Shown: positions 1 through 43,700 of the stretch, one piece after another
Layout of the letters: the number at the start of each line of letters is the position of its first letter
Numbering within the stretch: the first letter of the stretch is position 1
Virus genome (UHGV): UHGV-0870948
DNA length: 43,859 nucleotides
Direction: 5' to 3' (one strand)
Source of the DNA: a virus
Made by a program: the position numbers and the translations under genes
The notes under the pieces: generated by a model
What the model saw: the letters and a program-made list of their open reading frames with translations, nothing else
Databases searched by the model: none
Told to the model about the DNA's origin: nothing

Positions 1-67
1 TTTCACGATTACGCGCAATACCCCTGAGAACCGCCATGAACAAGGGCTTCATGATTTGTGATTTTAG

Positions 68-91
68 TTTGGTACGCAATTTGGTACACAA
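68..91 (+). repeat. Two tandem 12-bp direct repeats (TTTGGTACGCAA, TTTGGTACACAA); candidate integrase arm-type sites at the integrase-distal prophage end
   Basis: Core TGGTACRC is repeated here and three more times just upstream of int at 43654-43700, all in the same orientation. Confidence 0.4.
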
Positions 92-240
92 CACAATTTT
101 CACTTCAGCGGGTAGTCATCAAACTCACCATAACGAGCATCGTTAATGATGTATGTGATCACCACAAACATCACATCTGGACTAGTTCCGTTTTCATGCG
201 CAGGTATTTGTTCACGCCTCCCTTTCTGCAAATCCTAAAG

Positions 241-372
241 ATGAGATTTAAAGATGATGAACTGGCGCAATATAATTTGTGGCTGGATTATCTGGACGCA
301 CTGGAACTGGTTGATTCCTCCAGTGCGCCAGATATTGAATGGCCTACGCCTCCGGCTGTTCAGGCCAGATGA
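241..372 (+). pseudogene. Inverted C-terminal remnant of a tail fibre assembly (Tfa) gene
   Basis: Translation ...[32 protein letters not shown] parallels the C-terminus of the minus-strand Tfa (...[30 protein letters not shown]); only about 44 codons, convergent with the intact tfa. Confidence 0.45.
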
Positions 373-955
373 TATCCGGCGCGGTGCTGGTATCTGTTGC
401 CGTCACCGCGTCAATGTAATCCAGCACGGCGTTAAGTCGGGTTGTTTCTGCCTGCGTCAGCTTCCGCCCGGCCTGCAATTTCAGTTGAATCAGACTGATG
501 GAAGCCATTGCAGCATCAATCAGTGACTGTCGCTGTGCTTCCGCCGCTTCTACTGCGGCGCTATGCTGTGCCTCAGTATCCGTCACCCATTTTTGACCAT
601 CCCATTTATCATATGGCGTTAACTGGGGGATAGTGGTTGTATTTTCAGGGTAATCACCCGGAGCTGTGATTTCTTTTGATTCTCCTGTTTCGGTGCTAAA
701 GACGATTTCACCGCGATGGTCTGGCACATATTCCCATGAGTTAAAATCTGCAGAACGGCAGATTGCATAACCAGCTTTATGTGTAACTGGTGCATCTAAA
801 CAAGAACATGCCGGGATACCGACACCAACGGCAAGATATTCAGTTGATGTGGAAATATATTCCCGCGTTTCACCGCTGTAGTTGTAAACGGTGATGAAGC
901 CAGCTTCTGTTGCGAATCCGTTTTCATCTAAGGTGATTTTTTTTGTGGTCATCAT
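344..955 (-). CDS. Tail fibre assembly protein (Tfa)
   Basis: 203-aa ORF directly downstream of the tail fibre gene with 4-nt overlap; characteristic Tfa C-terminus ...[11 protein letters not shown]. Confidence 0.8.
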
Positions 956-1758
956 GCTGCCCTTACAATGTAGTTAAATGCAATGTTGCGCGGCCTTGTT
1001 TCAGCTGATGTTCTGGCACTCCTGGATAAATCAAGTGTGATACTATAGAAACTAAATGCACTACCAGCTGATGGAGCGGCATATTTAACCCCAGAACTAG
1101 AACCAATATTAAAAACTCCAGATGCTGAGAGAGAAGACCCCATAGTGTTATCACTCAGAGAACCCGTAACATTTTGCATAGCGTCAAGTTGTTCGCTTAA
1201 TAAAGCGCGTCCACTATCAACATCACGCCCGTCATCCCAGCCACGAATAAACTCACCACGTAAATCAGGCAATTTATTTGTCGGATAAACTTTTGCCAGT
1301 TCTGGATACTCTTCAGCAGAAAAAGGCGCTCCATTGCATTTCAGCCAGCCCGTTGGAGGAGTGGCTGAAGGCCACGGAACAGGTATGCCAACTGGTAACG
1401 CTGAGCCTTCTCCCAAACCAAGGTTTTCGAGAGCCGTTTTCACCGTGCCATCCGATTTGATATCACCAAACGGATTCTTGCGGCTCAGGTATTCAACAGC
1501 AAACCCCGATCCCAGCAATTCAACAAAACCGGGCAGATCACCATTATCAAGCACATCCCGTTGCGTTTTGTCACTTACAAACTGGGCCAGAGCTGCAGCA
1601 ATAAAGCTGGCCTGCCGAATAACCTTATTGACTTGCGCACTGGATGCTTTCCCTGCTGTAAATCCGGATAAAAGCGCAGGCAACGCTTCCCATTCCTCCT
1701 GCGACATAACATTGGCATTTCGATCAGTTGCAAACGCTTTAAAGTCATTTTTCGCCAT
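952..1758 (-). CDS. Tail fibre protein
   Basis: [36 protein letters not shown]..., Gly/Ser-rich C-terminus, followed by Tfa; start taken at the internal ATG overlapping the upstream stop. Confidence 0.7.
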
Positions 1759-2438
1759 CAGAGTAATACTCCCCATGCCCCTACATCAAAACCACTGATG
1801 AATTCGTTATCCATATCAAAACCAAAAAATTTAGAGCCTTCAGATGGAGTTTCCACCGAAGGTGTTTCAATGCCCCCCGCCCATACCCCGGCGGCTTTTA
1901 CTGTGAGATACCCCTGTTTAATTGCCGCAATTAACTCACGCGATACATCTGAAATATCAGTATCAGGAAAGACCCAGACCGATATCGTCATGTCCTGGTT
2001 ATCGACTATCTGCATTCGCAGCCCGGATCCTGCTGTTGCAGCGTCAAGAATTGCCGGAAGCGAATCATTCCGTCCGTCCCAGTTATTAATCGCAATCTTC
2101 GCTTTAAGGATGACACGATAAGTTTCATCGCTGAGGTACATGTATCCGGAATCAGGATCGTATGGCCCCTGCCATACACCCTGATCATATCCAAGCCCGT
2201 CGGTATCCCAGCTGAAATAGACACCTGAGATAGGCTGGCTGACAACACGGCTACGTCCGATCCACAATCCCAGAATGTCAAGTTGCACACCAACCGCAGA
2301 GTCAATATCAAATGCAGTAATCAGCCCTCTGGTGGCAGCCGCAACATCAATAAGTGGCCGGGTCATCAGATCAACATGCGCAAGAAATTTAGGTTTGGTG
2401 GCGTGGTAGTTCGTGATTAGTTCGGTGTATTTGCTCAT
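1758..2438 (-). CDS. Phage tail/baseplate protein (YmfQ-like, precedes tail fibre)
   Basis: 226-aa ORF between the baseplate J-like gene and the tail fibre gene; translationally coupled to both. Confidence 0.5.
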
Positions 2439-3634
2439 GACTCCACCGTTATAACGATATTTTCCGGGGTACAGGACGCAGATTCGTTGTATCTGATATC
2501 AATGTTTGATGACGACAAAGCCCCCGGGGATTTCCCAATCGTCAGTTCCTGAATATCGTAATAGCGTGCATTCCCGCCACTCACCACGCCAAGATTCGCC
2601 GGTGAGTAAATGCGACTTAAAAGGACCGAATCACCAATCGTCAAACTATTGATATAGTCGGAAATAGCCTGCTGGATCTGCTGCCCTATCTGTGAGGTAT
2701 AACCCGTAAAAACTTTTAATTTAATCCGGGCATAAACAGGCACATCACTGGAACGCGAGAATTTGATTACATGGGGATTGCCGTATTTATCCGGAACCGT
2801 AACGGATGTTGTACCGTGAGTGGCTGTCCCCTGGCCTTTATTCCCTCTGATAGCCTGAGCAATATCCGTCACATCACCGCCATCCACAATTACAGCAACA
2901 GAGTGTGGCGGTAACCCGTTACCGTCCTCCGAACCAGTATCGTTTTCATAGAGTTTGTGGCGGGTTACACCGGTAACATTAGAAACAGCACCATCCAGTG
3001 CTTCAAATGGGGTTATTGATGGCAACGCAACACTTTGCGACTGACGGATACGTAACTCAGCATCAGTTTCTGCCGGAGAACCAACAGTAGCCGCAGCAGG
3101 ATTAGTTACCGAAACCCAGCCACGGGTTGGCGTATTAATTTCAGTGATAGTTCCAGCCAGCGCCGCCACTGCACCACTGACGGAACATGTTGCGGTCGCC
3201 ATCACTGTACCATCCACGCCGACCACCACTGAAGCAGGCAAACGCCATATCACATTATTACTGTCTTTCACGCTGCCATTAATGATGGTTGTTCCGGCAG
3301 TTCCTGTAAGAAGCAAATCAACCGTAGAGTTCGTCGCGCCTTTACGTGAAATACCATTTATTTTCACGTTACTGGTCAGTGCAGCCCCATAGCCGGTTGC
3401 CGGTGAAAAACAGTTGTAGACAGTTATCGCCATATTATTGGCATCATGAATCGCCAGCGCCATCAGAGCCACCATCTGGCCGTCTTTGCTGTCCGGTTCG
3501 AGGTAGGCATCACTGCCATAAATCTGCTGAAAATAGCTAATCAGGGTGCTGAGTATCGTCTGATAATCAGGCGCACTGATCCCCTCCGCGGTTACCTTTG
3601 CAGATAAACCGAGAGAATCAAGGTTCAGAGCCAT
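2435..3634 (-). CDS. Baseplate J-like protein
   Basis: 399-aa ORF in the conserved position after the small baseplate protein; family assignment from memory. Confidence 0.65.
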   Translation of the reverse strand: MALNLDSLGLSAKVTAEGISAPDYQTILSTLISYFQQIYGSDAYLEPDSKDGQMVALMALAIHDANNMAITVYNCFSPATGYGAALTSNVKINGISRKGATNSTVDLLLTGTAGTTIINGSVKDSNNVIWRLPASVVVGVDGTVMATATCSVSGAVAALAGTITEINTPTRGWVSVTNPAAATVGSPAETDAELRIRQSQSVALPSITPFEALDGAVSNVTGVTRHKLYENDTGSEDGNGLPPHSVAVIVDGGDVTDIAQAIRGNKGQGTATHGTTSVTVPDKYGNPHVIKFSRSSDVPVYARIKLKVFTGYTSQIGQQIQQAISDYINSLTIGDSVLLSRIYSPANLGVVSGGNARYYDIQELTIGKSPGALSSSNIDIRYNESASCTPENIVITVES

Positions 3635-3987
3635 TACGCCTCCGATGTAACAGTCGTTATTCCATAGAGAGTGTCGATTTCAGCGGAAAACATGACACGT
3701 CGGGTCGTGGTATCCACCGTCGTATTGAAAGAGAGGATTGATTTAACGCCCTGCGTTTCGAGGATGCGCTTACGGATCGCCAGGTTGTAAGTTTCTGGTT
3801 TTTGCCTGCCCAGCACGGACTGGATCCACGGTGTTCCCTCTGTGGTATCAAGAAACCATTGCCCATACCACAATTCGAATCGCGTTTTCACAGCCTGCGC
3901 TACGGCCTCAGGCGAGTTAATCAGCCAGGTGTCATCACCGCTGCCAAAGGTGTAATCGCCATCGGCGTCTTCACGTCTGTATCGCAT
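3634..3987 (-). CDS. Small baseplate-associated protein (gp46/W-like)
   Basis: 117-aa ORF coupled between the spike and J-like genes. Confidence 0.45.
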   Translation of the reverse strand: MRYRREDADGDYTFGSGDDTWLINSPEAVAQAVKTRFELWYGQWFLDTTEGTPWIQSVLGRQKPETYNLAIRKRILETQGVKSILSFNTTVDTTTRRVMFSAEIDTLYGITTVTSEA

Positions 3988-4596
3988 CAGTTTACCCCGT
4001 CGGTACTGCTTCCACCACGCTGAACACCACCATGAGTGTGTGTATCATCGATTGGCTTGCCATTAGCCTTCACGCTCCCCAAAAACTCAACAGCACCAGT
4101 GATTTTTGAAGCCACACCAGAAACCACAGACCCCACCATGCCCCCCATCCAGGTTAACAGGCCATGAATGGTTACTTTCTCAGAAAAATCAGCCAGAGGG
4201 GCAACCACATCAAGACCACCTGGAGCGACAATTTTAATTTTCCTGGTATCAGGATTAAGCTCAAAATAGGTGCTGCCGTCATCACTACGCAACTGTGTGG
4301 CACTGGTATTAATACCGCTAATCTTCCTTGCCTGCGACTGGGGACCGACAATACAAAACGCATCCGATAAATCATGCATTCTGTCATCGACCGACTCCTG
4401 TATCCCGCCACTCTGCCACCAGAAATCAATACAACGATCGGCAAAAATCACCAAACATTCATCACCGGCTTTAACTGGGAACGTTAGCGTACATCCTCCG
4501 CCGCGCGGGAATACCACTGGCACATCCACCAGCAATGGGTAATTTTTGGTAATGCGGTTGCCGTCATTATCCTTTTCAACCGAACGGATAGCAGGC
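3987..4596 (-). pseudogene. Baseplate spike protein (gpV / Mu gp45-like), 3' portion separated from its 5' end by the IS66-family insertion
   Basis: Frame continues ...PAIRSVEKDNDGNRITKNYPLLVDVPVVF...; the PA codons lie in the left TSD copy and rejoin in frame with the fragment at 7138-7288. Confidence 0.7.
4589..4596. repeat. Target-site duplication, left copy (TAGCAGGC)
   Basis: Identical 8-mer abuts both ends of the IS66-family element. Confidence 0.8.
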
Positions 4597-4626
4597 GTAA
4601 GCGTCAACGGAGCACCGTATTGACGC

Positions 4627-6240
4627 TTATTTATTAGTGAGTACTACGTTCCATGGCAGGAGTTCGTCAACTCGGTTGGAAGGCCATTCCGGCAGTACGC
4701 TCAGGATATGGCGCAGATACGCTTCCGGATCGATACCATTCAACCGGCAGGTGCCGATCAGCCCGTACAACAGTGCACCACGCTCGCCTCCGTGATCGCT
4801 ACCGAAGAACACGTAATTTTTCTTTCCGAGACAGACTGCACGAAGCGCTCTTTCCGCTGTGTTATTGTCCGCCTCCGCCAGACCGTCATCACAGAAGTTG
4901 CACAACGCAACCCAGTGCTTCCTGATATACCGGAACGCATCTCTCAGACGGCATTTTTTCGATAACGTGTGTTCTTTCTCCTGCATCAGCTTATACAGGG
5001 AAGTCAGTAGCGGTTTACTCTGCATTTGCCTGACCGCCAGGCGTTCAGACACCGGCAACCCGCGTATTTCGTGCTCAATGGCGTACAGTTCGCCGATTAG
5101 TTTCAGTGCTTCTTCCGCCGTCGCGCTTTTGGTACTGATATATACATCGTGGATTTTGCGCCGTGCATGAGCCCAGCATCCTGCTTCCGTCAACGCGCCG
5201 CCTTCACGTTCGGCACTGAACAGCCGATCGTAACCTGCGAACGCATCTGCCTGCAGGATACCCCGGAAGGGACGAAGGTGTTGCTCCGGATGTTTACCCT
5301 GATGGTCCGGTGAGTAGGCGAACCAGACCGCCGGAGGTTCTGGCGAACCGGCATTTCGGTCATCCCGGACATACGTCCAGATATATCCTGTTTTCGCCTT
5401 CTTCCTGCCCGGTGCCAGTACTTTTACTGGTGTGTCATCAGTGTGAACCTTGCGGGTGTTCATCACATAACTGTACAGGGCATCATTCAGCGGAGTCATT
5501 AACTGGCAGCACGCATCAACCCAGTTGGAGAGTAAGGCACGGCTCAGTTCGACACCCTGGCGGGCAAAGATTTCACTCTGACGATACAGTGGCAGGTGTT
5601 CGCAGTATTTTCCCGTTAACACGCGGGCAAGTAACCCCGGGCCCGCGATACCACGCTCTATCGGACGGGATGGTGCCGGTGCTTCAACGATGCAGTCACA
5701 TTTTGTACAGGCTTTTTTTACCCGTTCTGTGCGGATCACTTTCAGGGCGCTGCTCACCAGTTCCAGTTGTTCTGCGCTGACTTCCCCCAGATAATCCAGC
5801 TCACCGCCACACTCCGGGCAACAGCTTTCTTCAGGCTCCAGGCGGTATATTTCACGGGGGAGATGTGCCGGTAACGGACGACGATGGCGCGACTGTCGCA
5901 ACTGGCGGGGAACCAGCGGGTCATCCTCACGCCCACTGTAACGATCGCTTTCCTGCTCGCGTTGTTTCAGCAGGGCTTCAGCCTGTTCAACCTCACGACG
6001 CAGTTTTTCAGAACGGGTTCCGAACAGCATCCGGCGCAGTTTTTCTATCTGAGCCCGCAGATGCTCTATTTCCCGTTCATCTTCTTCGATCTTTTCTTCG
6101 GCACGTGCCAGTGCAGAGCGCAGGAAGGCCTCCGTCTCTTCAACCAGACTCAGTTGCTGGTCTTTCTGACGGAGGGCTTCAGCCTGCTCAGAGAGCAGCC
6201 TTTCCAGCTCAGCGATGCGAATGAGGTATTTCTGACTCAT
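4627..6240 (-). CDS. tnpC: IS66-family transposase TnpC
   Basis: 537-aa ORF with N-terminal coiled-coil, CxxC...CxxC zinc motif and conserved IS66 transposase core. Confidence 0.85.
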   Translation of the reverse strand: MSQKYLIRIAELERLLSEQAEALRQKDQQLSLVEETEAFLRSALARAEEKIEEDEREIEHLRAQIEKLRRMLFGTRSEKLRREVEQAEALLKQREQESDRYSGREDDPLVPRQLRQSRHRRPLPAHLPREIYRLEPEESCCPECGGELDYLGEVSAEQLELVSSALKVIRTERVKKACTKCDCIVEAPAPSRPIERGIAGPGLLARVLTGKYCEHLPLYRQSEIFARQGVELSRALLSNWVDACCQLMTPLNDALYSYVMNTRKVHTDDTPVKVLAPGRKKAKTGYIWTYVRDDRNAGSPEPPAVWFAYSPDHQGKHPEQHLRPFRGILQADAFAGYDRLFSAEREGGALTEAGCWAHARRKIHDVYISTKSATAEEALKLIGELYAIEHEIRGLPVSERLAVRQMQSKPLLTSLYKLMQEKEHTLSKKCRLRDAFRYIRKHWVALCNFCDDGLAEADNNTAERALRAVCLGKKNYVFFGSDHGGERGALLYGLIGTCRLNGIDPEAYLRHILSVLPEWPSNRVDELLPWNVVLTNK

Positions 6241-6270
6241 GGCCGTTTTTATAATGCGGTCAGGAGTTTT

Positions 6271-6621
6271 TTACAACATTGTCAGTGCGTTAAGGCGGGA
6301 TGTTTTTGGCTGACGCCAGTCCAGCTTATCGAGGAGCATTGCCAGTTGCGAGCGGGTAATGGATATCTTACCGTCACGCACCGCAGGCCAGATAAACTGA
6401 CCTTCCTCAAGGCGTTTGGTGAACAGGCACAGACCATCAGCATCAGCCCACAGGATTTTAATCGTGTCTCCCCGTCGGCCACGGAAGATAAACAGGTGAC
6501 CGGAGAAGGGGTTATCATCCAGCACATGCTGTATTTGCTCCCCCAGACCGTTGAAGGATTTACGCATATCAGTAACGCCGGCAACGAGCCAGATACGGGT
6601 ACCTGATGGGAGTGAAATCAT
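6271..6621 (-). CDS. tnpB: IS66-family accessory protein TnpB (Orf2)
   Basis: 116-aa ORF MISLPSGTRIWLVAGVTDMRKSFNGL... typical of IS66 Orf2; overlaps tnpA. Confidence 0.8.
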   Translation of the reverse strand: MISLPSGTRIWLVAGVTDMRKSFNGLGEQIQHVLDDNPFSGHLFIFRGRRGDTIKILWADADGLCLFTKRLEEGQFIWPAVRDGKISITRSQLAMLLDKLDWRQPKTSRLNALTML

Positions 6622-7055
6622 CGTCCCCTCCCGGTCAGCTCACGGATCAACACCGTGAGCAGCTCTGGTGAAGGATTTTCCAGCATCATTTTACCGTAAT
6701 GGAATTCCACATGGCAGGAAGCTGCACAAGCAACTGATAATGCCTCCGGAGCAGGAGCATCTGTAGCACAGCGCGTGGTGTCGATAAGTTCCACTGGAAC
6801 CAGAGTCGGAGAGGCCGGAAAAGATTGTGATACTGTAGGGCCTACAATAGTTGGAGGCATTCTGCGAGAAATACGTCCTTCTCTTTGCCAGAGGCGTAGC
6901 CATTTAAAAATCAGGTTGTTATCAACGCCATGTTCCCGGGCCAGTTGTGCAACATTGGCATTTGGTTTCGAAGCCAGTTCAACCATATGAAGTTTAAATT
7001 CATTAGAAAATATCCGGCGGGTTCCGGAGCGCCAGTCTGTAGGTTTATCCATCAA
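6618..7055 (-). CDS. tnpA: IS66-family accessory protein TnpA (Orf1)
   Basis: 145-aa ORF with HTH-like segment (FSNEFKLHMVELASKPNANVAQLAREHGV), first gene of the IS66 operon. Confidence 0.75.
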   Translation of the reverse strand: MMDKPTDWRSGTRRIFSNEFKLHMVELASKPNANVAQLAREHGVDNNLIFKWLRLWQREGRISRRMPPTIVGPTVSQSFPASPTLVPVELIDTTRCATDAPAPEALSVACAASCHVEFHYGKMMLENPSPELLTVLIRELTGRGR

Positions 7056-7137
7056 TAGAACTCCGTCTAATTTAGAAGGAGCTCTAATTTAGTCTGCAAG
7101 GAGCAGGTGTTACAGACGGCATTGGCTTTACGCTTAC

Positions 7138-26740: not shown

Positions 26741-26816
26741 TGGTGCTGGTTAACGGACTTGAACCGCTACCCATTCGCTTACAAGGCGACTGCTCTACCA
26801 TTGGAGCTAAACCAGC
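26741..26816 (-). tRNA. tRNA-Thr (anticodon UGU)
   Basis: Hand-folded cloverleaf: 7-bp perfect acceptor stem, D stem GCTC/GAGC, anticodon loop CTTGTAA, T loop TTCAAGT, 3' ACCA; 76 nt. Confidence 0.65.
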
Positions 26817-26821
26817 ATATT

Positions 26822-26896
26822 TGGCGGGACAGCGTGGACTCGAACCACGATAAGAAGGTTAACAGCCTTCCGTAATGACCTTTATACGACTGACCC
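26822..26896 (-). tRNA. tRNA-Asn-like (anticodon GUU), possibly degenerate
   Basis: T arm CGTGG-TTCGAGT-CCACG, anticodon arm GAAGG-CTGTTAA-CCTTC, 3' GCCA; one acceptor-stem and one D-stem mismatch. Confidence 0.4.
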
Positions 26897-26959: not shown

Positions 26960-28141
26960 CTAAATGGCTAATTGCATGTCAAGGCTTTTAACGGCAACAT
27001 GCTTAACTTTCTCAACACGTTTACGCATTTTGAAAGCATTTTGCATTGGCTGGTATAAAACAAATAATGACGCTTTCAGGATGTCGTCAATTTCGTTTCT
27101 ACAGGTTGCCAGTGAAGGTTTTCTCCATCCCTCGCCACCACGTCCACACATCTTGCGTGGCTTTGCAGTCGCGTGATAGTAGGATGCAATTGCTCGCTTA
27201 GATGAACCATGAGCGTAGTAGCTGAGGAGGATGCCAAAGGCTTTCTTGTCAATGTACATGACGGAATCGACGACCTGAGAAATCAACATTCCATCATCAT
27301 CATTGCACATTGGCCTTGTCATAACTCTTCCCGGCTCTACGCTCTCCATGAACTTCGCTATTACGCTGCTCATGCGCTTTTCCAGACGACCTGAATAAAC
27401 CCATGCGCCCCACAGTTCAAGCCAGCCATTCAGCCACTCGTGCTGCTCTTTGGTGAGGTTTAGTTCTCTTATGCCCACGCGCCTTCTCCCTGTACCTGAA
27501 TCAATGTGAGGTTTTCCGCAGAACACTGCGCCGGTATCGATATACATCTGGTTGGCAAACTTGAGTAGTTTCACTGCTGGCGTATGACCAAAGATGAACG
27601 TGTCAGCTCCTTTGATTTCTTTCACGATCCCGTCTTGTGAGTTGCTGATTCGTTCGCGGTTCCAGATTACCTGCTGATGATCAACTGGCTTTCCAAATTC
27701 GTATTCGTCACAAGGATAATCGGCGTGGCAGATGACATATTTTTTACCTTCGCTCACCAGTTCGATGATTAACGGAAGTTCATCTGCTTTATGGGCAAGA
27801 GCTTTAGCCAGAATTTCTTTGTCGTAATCGAGATTAAAGAACCAGCCACCGCCATTAAACAGCCAGTGATTGACGTTTCCGCGCTCTGATAAGCCATCAA
27901 TCATCATTTGCTCATGGTTTCCACGTACAACTCGGAACCAGGGGAATGTGATTAATTCCAGACATTCGACGTTCTCTGTACCGCGATCGACCAAATCGCC
28001 AACCGAGATAAGCAGGTCTTTTTTGGTGTCGAATCCTATCGTCTCCAGTTTTTTCATCAGGTTCGTGTAGCATCCGTGCAGATCGCCAACTACCCAAATA
28101 TTTCGGTATTTGCTGCCATCAATTCTTTCGTAATAGCGCAT
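26960..28141 (-). CDS. NinI-type Ser/Thr phosphatase domain continuous in frame with a Q-like late antiterminator domain (fusion or frameshift)
   Basis: N-terminal part matches lambda NinI (GDLHGC...GNHE); C-terminal part has Q-like motifs LELWGAW and [11 protein letters not shown]; no stop between them; the alternative frame after the A4 run encodes [14 protein letters not shown]-stop. Confidence 0.6.
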
Positions 28142-28325
28142 CTCTTTCACTCCATCCGCGATGAACCATGAGAACGTCGTTGACGATGGCGTGCATTTTC
28201 CCGTCTTTATCATCAACGTATTTTCTGACCGTGCCGCGACTACATTTCAGTCTGCGTGCTACTTCTGTCTGGTTTCCGTATGCTTCAACGAGCATGTCTG
28301 GAATGGTTTTTACTGAGAACGTCAT
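28119..28325 (-). CDS. ninH: NinH
   Basis: 68 aa, [36 protein letters not shown]...; lambda NinH-like HTH. Confidence 0.8.
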
Positions 28326-43653: not shown

Positions 43654-43700
43654 TTTGGTACGCTCAAAAATAATGGTTTGGTACACATCTGGTACACAAT
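43654..43700 (+). repeat. Three direct copies of the TGGTACRC arm-type motif immediately upstream of int
   Basis: TTTGGTACGCTC, TTTGGTACACAT, CTGGTACACAAT; same motif and orientation as 68-91. Confidence 0.45.

What the first reader, a model, noticed from the sequence alone, without database searches (positions are those of the whole stretch)
241..372. Inverted Tfa C-terminal remnant: vestige of an invertible tail-fibre segment
Seen in sequence: the plus strand encodes a Tfa-like C-terminus whose last codons overlap the intact minus-strand tfa tail-to-tail. Such convergent Tfa copies are the signature of host-range switching cassettes driven by a Gin/Pin/Cin invertase. No invertase gene or alternative fibre C-terminus is present in the window, so the switch appears decayed or lies off-window to the left.
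Basis: partly seen in the sequence, partly recalled or inferred. Interest (0 to 1): 0.45.

Follow-up and report, generated by a model that had tools for sequence, protein, structure and literature searches.

The report
Leftover end of inverted tail-fibre chaperone gene
The flagged 130 bases are the dead last third of a second, oppositely oriented tail-fibre chaperone gene, left when a deletion destroyed a prophage's Pin-type host-range inversion switch; this is a common, already annotated kind of prophage decay.

Summary
Window 250-372 (+) encodes the last 40 codons and stop of a tail-fibre assembly gene (tfa'). It matches Pfam Caudo_TAP positions 96-131 (E 4.5e-11) and is 43% identical to the C-terminus of the intact tfa at 344-955 (-). 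The two overlap tail-to-tail by 29 bp. Bases 241-249, including the ATG, are not tfa DNA. They belong to a truncated humD/S24-peptidase remnant fused at a deletion joint at 249|250.

The fibre gene (952-1776, -) carries a 26/26 match to e14 pixL at 1408-1433. The window has no pixR, no invertase and no alternative fibre C-terminus. A sister prophage (L007, E. coli QML220601) has the complete cassette: pinE, pixR, Sv', a 146-aa tfa', tfa, and stf with pixL.

The switch is decayed, not off-window. The four relatives checked with the same joint have host gene dacD 244 bp to the left, and two carry a nonsense codon in the remnant. Other breakpoints exist in other phages, including HK97. RefSeq already annotates this remnant as a tfa pseudogene.

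A strong hairpin inside the remnant might explain its retention, but no covariation supports that. Ordinary; low interest.

The parts
250..372 (+). 3' remnant of the inverted tail-fibre assembly gene tfa' (last 40 codons plus TGA); pseudogene
   Evidence: Pfam Caudo_TAP positions 96-131, E 4.5e-11. DNA homology to full-length tfa' genes starts at 250 (93% to L001; 87-92% to L007 and L008). PGAP annotates the equivalent stretch in relatives as 'tail fiber assembly protein, incomplete, missing N-terminus'.
241..249 (+). Fortuitous ATG AGA TTT supplied by the flanking humD-remnant DNA; not part of tfa'
   Evidence: Identical in E. coli MB10 (L005), where the sequence continues as humD pseudogene rather than tfa'.
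249..250 (.). Deletion joint fusing a truncated humD to a truncated tfa', with no obvious microhomology
   Evidence: Three-way comparison of window, L005 and L007. The identical joint occurs in L002, L003, L004 and L009. L006 has a joint that retains 104 bp more.
100..249 (-). C-terminal remnant of a humD / S24-peptidase gene, cut at 249
   Evidence: PGAP pseudogene annotations in L003, L004 and L005. There was no Pfam hit for the 43-aa piece alone.
344..372 (.). 29-bp tail-to-tail overlap of the two convergent tfa reading frames
   Evidence: Stop codons at 344-346 (-) and 370-372 (+). The same overlap is present in L001, L007 and L008 and in nearly all IMG/VR relatives.
344..955 (-). Intact tail-fibre assembly gene tfa (203 aa)
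   Evidence: Caudo_TAP E 1e-33, residues 81-202. About 94% DNA identity to HK97 tfa.
952..1776 (-). Tail-fibre gene stf (274 aa): constant N-terminal part, pixL, then a variable HK97-like C-terminal part
   Evidence: Pfam Collar domain E 9e-15. Homology to sister prophages breaks at 1406, and homology to HK97 runs 292-1431.
1408..1433 (+). Orphan crossover site, identical to e14 pixL (TTCTCCCAAACCAAGGTTTTCGAGAG); encodes LENLGLGEG in stf
   Evidence: It is the only match in the window with up to 3 mismatches allowed, and is 26/26 to pixL in Table 3 of PMC3241671. No pixR is present.
293..334 (.). Strong inverted repeat / hairpin inside the remnant, 10 nt downstream of the tfa(-) stop
   Evidence: RNA folds have z = -6.9 on the minus strand and -7.9 on the plus strand. 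The hairpin is also predicted in L007, L003 and HK97. No covariation support was found.
378..411 (+). Mirror-image hairpin inside the tfa(-) coding end, 6 nt downstream of the tfa' stop
   Evidence: Fold z = -3.1. A terminator-like hit lies at 376-390.

Best explanation
Window 250-372 is a non-functional leftover. It is the 3' third of tfa', the second and oppositely oriented tail-fibre chaperone gene of a Pin-type (e14 P-segment-like) invertible host-range cassette. In the ancestral phage, Pin recombined pixL, inside the fibre gene, with pixR, next to pin. This flipped a segment of about 1.9 kb so that the constant fibre N-terminus was joined either to Sv with tfa or to Sv' with tfa'. In this prophage, one deletion or two nested deletions removed the 5' two-thirds of tfa', together with Sv', pixR, pin and the 5' part of a neighbouring humD gene. 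The fibre is therefore locked in one orientation, using an HK97-like Sv/tfa pair. PixL is an orphan site, and the 40-codon tfa' stub is drifting as a pseudogene. Shown here: the homology, the joint, the orphan pixL, the absence of pin, pixR and Sv', and the intact cassette in a sister phage. Inferred: the direction of change (loss rather than gain) and the lack of expression.
For: The remnant is a Tfa C-terminus. Homology to full-length tfa' begins exactly at 250, and the DNA to the left is a humD pseudogene module that continues differently in other strains. An exact pixL lies in stf. There is no pixR, Pin or Sv' anywhere in the window. Sister prophage L007 has pinE (184 aa), pixR (4298-4323, identical to e14 pixR), Sv', a 146-aa tfa', tfa, and stf with pixL, with the same 29-bp overlap. 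Of 52 IMG/VR loci with a full tfa' and at least 1300 bp upstream, 38 have a Pin homologue, 28 of them near full length, usually with two inverted pix-like sites 1.8-1.9 kb apart. The same joint in L003 and L009 carries TGG>TGA in the remnant frame. Other truncation states exist: L006 keeps 59 codons and HK97 keeps 27, and 12 of 119 IMG/VR loci have short stubs with several different breakpoints. In the four same-joint relatives checked, dacD ends 244 bp left of window position 1, and the window's right end abuts sbcB, so no room remains for an off-window invertase. The prophage is otherwise decaying too, with an IS66-family insertion in the spike gene.
Against: The window's own genome was not found, so its left flank is inferred from relatives (one search found nothing; the best relative, TB06053, is 99.0% identical over 1-420). 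In this window the stub's frame is still open, with an in-frame ATG, and a sigma-70-like match lies at 247-276, so expression cannot be formally excluded. The hairpin at 293-334 leaves room for a retained cis function.
Confidence: 0.93

Rival explanations
1. The stub is retained because it carries a cis-acting stem-loop (293-334). On the minus-strand transcript this lies 10 nt after the tfa stop and would act as a terminator or 3'-end stabiliser for the late fibre operon. The convergent tfa pair would then be a bidirectional terminator module. This is compatible with the vestige origin.
For: The hairpin folds far better than shuffled sequence on both strands in the window, L007, L003 and HK97 (z -3.4 to -7.9). 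A mirror hairpin follows the tfa' stop (z -3.1; terminator-like hit at 376-390). HK97's shorter vestige ends at the foot of the hairpin. The two paralogous arms (GCACTG/CAGTGC against GCGGTG/CACCGC) differ in a compensatory way.
Against: No U-tract follows the stem on the minus strand, and the scan found no minus-strand terminator there. Among 42 distinct tfa' 3' ends, all stem changes are one-sided, giving mismatch or wobble and no compensatory pairs. Some stubs (L118, L120, L149) and full-length alleles (...[21 protein letters not shown]) lack the 5' arm. The paralogue comparison rests on only two sequences, and the arms encode conserved residues (LDAL / SAPD).
Confidence: 0.15
2. The 43-codon ORF 241-372 is expressed as a small protein, a free Tfa C-terminal peptide that modulates fibre assembly.
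For: The frame is open with an ATG in this window. The Tfa C-terminal motif is intact. A promoter-like match lies at 247-276.
Against: The ATG comes from unrelated DNA and has no recognisable Shine-Dalgarno sequence upstream (cctaaagATG). The promoter-like hexamers lie downstream of the ATG. Two of the four relatives with the same joint have a nonsense codon in this frame. Only 36 of 131 domain positions remain. Promoter-like hits were not enriched over shuffles.
Confidence: 0.03
3. The switch is still functional, with the invertase and the alternative arm lying just outside the window on the left.
For: The window begins only 249 bp left of the remnant, and its own flank is unseen.
Against: The alternative chaperone gene is truncated inside the window at a joint with humD DNA. 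In the four same-joint relatives checked, dacD ends 244 bp left of position 1. Integrase arm-type repeats at 70-92 and 43656-43700 mark both prophage ends inside the window.
Confidence: 0.02
4. The similarity is a chance or antisense artefact of reading the opposite strand of tfa.
For: The two frames overlap.
Against: Only 29 of 123 nt overlap. The Pfam E-value is 4.5e-11. The stretch is about 93% identical in DNA to bona fide 146-aa tfa' genes.
Confidence: 0.005

Closest known systems
e14 P-segment / PinE invertible tail-fibre cassette of E. coli K-12 (Plasterk & van de Putte 1985; PMC4272514; PMC12529663)
   Same: The crossover site in the fibre gene is identical to pixL (26/26). The sister prophage L007 has the identical pixR and a gene annotated pinE. 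The layout is the same: stf constant part, pix, Sv, tfa, then convergent tfa', Sv', pix and pin.
   Different: Here pin, pixR, Sv' and two-thirds of tfa' are deleted. The host phage is a contractile-tailed prophage between dacD and sbcB, not e14. The surviving Sv/tfa pair is HK97-like.
Mu G segment / Gin and P1 C segment / Cin (Din-family invertases)
   Same: The principle is the same: convergent U/U' (tfa) genes in the middle of the invertible segment, and a crossover site inside the fibre gene encoding a conserved LGLGE-type motif.
   Different: The site is the pix variant rather than gix or cix, and the system is not functional in this window.
HK97 stf-tfa region
   Same: It is 94% identical to window 292-1431. 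It also has a pix-like site in stf and a 27-codon tfa' stub downstream of tfa, with no invertase.
   Different: HK97 is a siphovirus. Its stub is shorter and abuts the att/sib region instead of humD.
RefSeq/PGAP pseudogene 'tail fiber assembly protein, incomplete, missing N-terminus' next to dacD (for example ACVF3E_RS09165 in TB06053, ECRM12581_RS31050 in O145:H28 RM12581)
   Same: It is the same locus, the same 249|250 joint and the same remnant, at 97-99% identity.
   Different: Nothing material differs. Some of these alleles carry an additional nonsense codon.

Membership tests
Din-family (Pin/Gin/Cin) invertible tail-fibre segment | Adjacent serine DNA invertase gene | tested here: not met
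   tblastn of L007 PinE against the whole window gave nothing better than E 1.5.
Din-family (Pin/Gin/Cin) invertible tail-fibre segment | Two 26-bp crossover sites in inverted orientation | tested here: not met
   Only pixL is present, at 1408-1433. There is no pixR within 3 mismatches and no second core palindrome beyond chance.
Din-family (Pin/Gin/Cin) invertible tail-fibre segment | Two alternative fibre C-terminal exons (Sv and Sv') | tested here: not met
   No homologue of the L007 Sv' is present (best E 0.21). Only one Sv, at 952 to about 1407, is fused in frame.
Din-family (Pin/Gin/Cin) invertible tail-fibre segment | Two convergent tfa genes in the middle of the segment | tested here: inconclusive
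   One tfa is intact (344-955). The other is reduced to its last 40 codons (250-372). This shows descent from such a segment, not current membership.
Din-family (Pin/Gin/Cin) invertible tail-fibre segment | Observed inversion (both orientations present in a population) | not testable with these tools
   No read data are available.
Caudo_TAP (PF02413) tail-fibre assembly protein | Match to the family HMM above the gathering score | tested here: met
   The remnant scores 43.5 bits against a cut-off of 22.1, but covers only model positions 96-131 of 131, so it is a fragment.
Caudo_TAP (PF02413) tail-fibre assembly protein | Complete domain or full-length ORF, as in functional homologues (about 146 aa) | tested here: not met
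   105 N-terminal codons are missing relative to the L007 tfa'.

The most novel reading that the evidence does not exclude
The 3' ends of the two convergent tfa genes form a conserved bidirectional RNA hairpin module (293-334 and 378-411). Each hairpin is embedded in one gene's last codons and serves as the terminator or 3' stabiliser of the other gene. Selection for the hairpin downstream of the surviving tfa would then explain why tfa' stubs persist after the inversion switch is lost, here and in HK97.
Probability: 0.12. Interest if true: 0.35.

Novelty: already known. Interest (0 to 1): 0.12.

Why it matters
It matters little beyond annotation. The result shows that this prophage's fibre is locked in a single, HK97-like specificity and that the element is decaying: the switch is deleted and an IS sits in the spike gene. 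The stub and the orphan pixL are useful markers. They show that the conserved tfa/tfa' junction and the pix site act as the boundaries across which fibre-specificity cassettes are exchanged between unrelated phages. The only open point of some interest is whether the embedded hairpin has a cis function.

Tried and rejected
1. An exact 48-nt search for the joint in genome contigs found nothing, so the source genome and its own left flank were not recovered. Relatives were used instead.

2. The hairpin-as-terminator idea was tested. The folds are strong. However, an alignment of 42 distinct tfa' ends shows only one-sided changes. Several stubs and alleles lack the 5' arm. The scan saw no U-tract or minus-strand terminator. 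The idea is kept only as a low-probability rival.

3. The tblastn alignment of Tfa' to window 106-369 (88 aa with gaps) was examined. Only the part from 250 onward is true homology. The extension is an artefact of the chance-open frame 58-372.

4. I considered that window 1-249 might be host DNA. This was rejected. The module recurs next to a different prophage near prfC (L006) and contains integrase arm-type repeats shared with the right end.

5. No Pfam hit was obtained for the 43-aa humD piece. Its identity rests on PGAP annotations in relatives.

6. Literature searches for an explicit description of tfa' stubs found only general papers on e14/Pin and Mu.

Full report
**What is in the sequence**

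The plus-strand frame 241-372 reads [43 protein letters not shown]. The minus strand carries an intact 203-aa gene at 344-955. This gene is a Caudo_TAP tail-fibre assembly protein (Pfam PF02413, E 1e-33). It is preceded by a 274-aa fibre gene at 952-1776 with a Collar domain, and by baseplate genes (DUF2612-type and baseplate J).

The short plus-strand peptide aligns with residues 165-201 of the intact Tfa at 16/37 identity, E 8e-10. On its own it hits Caudo_TAP at model positions 96-131 of 131, E 4.5e-11 and 43.5 bits. The two stop codons lie at 344-346 (-) and 370-372 (+), so the frames overlap tail-to-tail by 29 bp. It is not an antisense artefact, because 94 of the 123 homologous bases lie outside the overlap.

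**Exact limits**

Homology to full-length tfa' genes begins at base 250, not 241.

- Window 1-249 is a separate module. It is 99.6% identical to DNA that in other E. coli strains continues as a humD / S24-peptidase pseudogene (L005, strain MB10).
- A three-way comparison places a clean joint at 249|250. The window reads ...GATGAGATTT|AAAGATGATGAACTGGCGC. L005 reads ...GATGAGATTT|TGGGGTTTTGGG. L007 reads ...GGCCGGCTG|AAAGGTGAGGAACTGGCGC.
- The ATG at 241 is therefore supplied by unrelated DNA, and the true remnant is 40 codons plus the stop.

**Evidence that the remnant comes from an invertible cassette**

1. The fibre gene contains TTCTCCCAAACCAAGGTTTTCGAGAG at 1408-1433. This is the only such site in the window. 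It matches 26/26 the pixL crossover site of the e14 P segment listed in Table 3 of PMC3241671. It encodes LENLGLGEG at the constant/variable boundary of the fibre.
2. The window has no pixR, no Pin homologue and no second fibre C-terminus (tblastn).
3. A sister prophage carries the complete cassette. L007 (E. coli QML220601) is 95-99% identical over the fibre-constant and baseplate region. Its cassette consists of:
   - pinE (184 aa);
   - a site identical to e14 pixR at 4298-4323;
   - an alternative fibre end Sv';
   - a 146-aa tfa' whose last 123 nt correspond to window 250-372;
   - the convergent tfa, with the same 29-bp overlap;
   - stf with pixL, 1.9 kb from pixR in inverted orientation.
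4. Among 52 IMG/VR loci with a full tfa' and enough upstream DNA, 38 have a Pin homologue, 28 of them near full length. Most of these loci show two inverted pix-like sites 1.8-1.9 kb apart.
5. The pinE-Sv'-tfa' allele of L007 is present nearly complete in 102 of 5,426 complete E. coli genomes. Parts of it occur in 3,001.

**Decayed rather than off-window**

The window's right end abuts sbcB. The identical 249|250 joint occurs in E. coli TB06053, KCJ3K291, CUPS SST 5/1 and O145:H28 RM12581. In each of these four, the host gene dacD ends 244 bp to the left of window position 1. Repeats of TTTGGTAC(G/A)C at 70-92 and 43656-43700 look like integrase arm sites at both prophage ends. There is therefore no room for an invertase to the left.

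PGAP already annotates the stretch in these genomes as 'tail fiber assembly protein, incomplete, missing N-terminus'. Two of the four relatives (L003, L009) carry TGG>TGA in the remnant frame, at the position equivalent to 342. That position is just outside the constraint of the overlapping tfa, as expected for a drifting pseudogene.

**A series of decay states**

- L006 has humD extended by 28 nt and fused to the last 59 codons of another tfa' allele. The window's joint is 104 bp shorter.
- HK97 keeps only 27 codons of tfa' downstream of its tfa, plus a pix-like site in stf.
- Among 119 IMG/VR loci that share the last 32 nt of tfa', 12 have short stop-to-stop frames with several different breakpoints.
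- The specific 249|250 joint is rare. About five complete E. coli genomes have it contiguous at 97% identity or more, whereas the tfa/tfa' junction itself occurs in about 2,600 genomes.

**Mechanism: shown and inferred**

The ancestor switched host range by Pin-mediated inversion between pixL and pixR. One deletion or two nested deletions between humD and tfa' removed pin, pixR, Sv' and 105 codons of tfa'. The fibre is now locked with an Sv/tfa pair that is 94% identical to that of siphovirus HK97.

Homology to the window's closest same-joint relatives is interrupted between 624 and 1405 (L004, L009). The conserved tfa C-terminal junction and the pix site therefore behave as the borders of an exchangeable specificity cassette.

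The loss direction is inferred from the truncation of both genes at the joint and from the intact sister cassette. The prophage is also decaying elsewhere. A 2,541-bp IS66-family element at 4597-7137, with GTAAGCGT termini and the 8-bp duplication TAGCAGGC, interrupts the baseplate spike gene.

**A side lead, tested and left open**

The remnant contains a strong inverted repeat at 293-334. It lies 10 nt downstream of the tfa stop on the minus-strand transcript.

In favour of a function:
- Predicted RNA hairpins are far more stable than shuffled sequence in the window, L007, L003 and HK97 (z -3.4 to -7.9).
- A mirror hairpin at 378-411 follows the tfa' stop (z -3.1).
- HK97's stub ends at the foot of the hairpin.

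Against a function:
- No U-tract follows the stem.
- All variation in 42 distinct sequences is one-sided.
- Some stubs and alleles lack the 5' arm.

I rate a cis function as possible but unsupported, at about 0.12-0.15.

**Comparison with known systems and verdict**

This works like nothing at present. It descends from the e14 P-segment / Mu G / P1 C class of Din-invertase fibre switches. As a functional member it fails three defining tests: invertase, second crossover site and second fibre end. As a vestige it is a textbook case and is already annotated as a pseudogene in RefSeq relatives.

The start is 250, not 241. The cassette is decayed, not off-window.

Novelty: already known. Interest: low.

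Noticed in passing
window 4597-7137: A 2,541-bp IS66-family insertion sequence interrupts the baseplate spike gene. It has a 537-aa transposase at 4627-6240 plus two small upstream ORFs, GTAAGCGT terminal inverted repeats and the 8-bp target duplication TAGCAGGC. The spike gene is 753 nt in sister phage L007. The prophage is probably defective.
   Followed up: yes
window 100-249 (-): A C-terminal remnant of a humD / S24-peptidase (UmuD-like) gene is truncated at the same joint as tfa'. The 1-249 module recurs at 97-99.6% identity next to quite different prophages at dacD, and also near prfC (L006).
   Followed up: partly
window 70-92 and 43656-43700: Repeated TTTGGTAC(G/A)C motifs occur near both ends of the window: two copies on the left and three on the right. 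They are probably integrase arm-type binding sites marking attR and attL of a prophage between dacD and sbcB. The core att site was not determined.
   Followed up: partly
window 292-1431; L010 (HK97) 2501-3663: The fibre-variable part plus tfa of this contractile-tailed prophage is about 94% identical to stf-tfa of siphovirus HK97. HK97 itself carries a 27-codon tfa' stub and a pix-like site (TTCTCCCAAACCAAGGTTTGTGCGAG) in stf, although it has no invertase.
   Followed up: partly
window 293-334 and 378-411: Two mirror-image strong hairpins are embedded in the last codons of the convergent tfa' and tfa genes. Each lies just downstream of the other gene's stop (z down to -7.9). There is no covariation support. 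A possible bidirectional terminator role is untested.
   Followed up: partly
window 26741-26896 (-): tRNA-Thr(TGT) and tRNA-Asn(GTT) genes lie inside the prophage, just downstream of the Q-like antiterminator region.
   Followed up: no
window 26960-28216 (-): A single 418-aa ORF combines a NinI-like Ser/Thr phosphatase (residues 23-235) with a Q-like antiterminator (residues 248-410). It may be a gene fusion or a read-through of two normally separate genes.
   Followed up: no
L006 3830-4523 (E. coli EC6, near prfC): A lambdoid prophage carries three tfa fragments in a row, interleaved with the same humD-remnant module and a piece of DNA that flanks pinE in L007. It is a more scrambled decay state of the same cassette.
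   Followed up: partly
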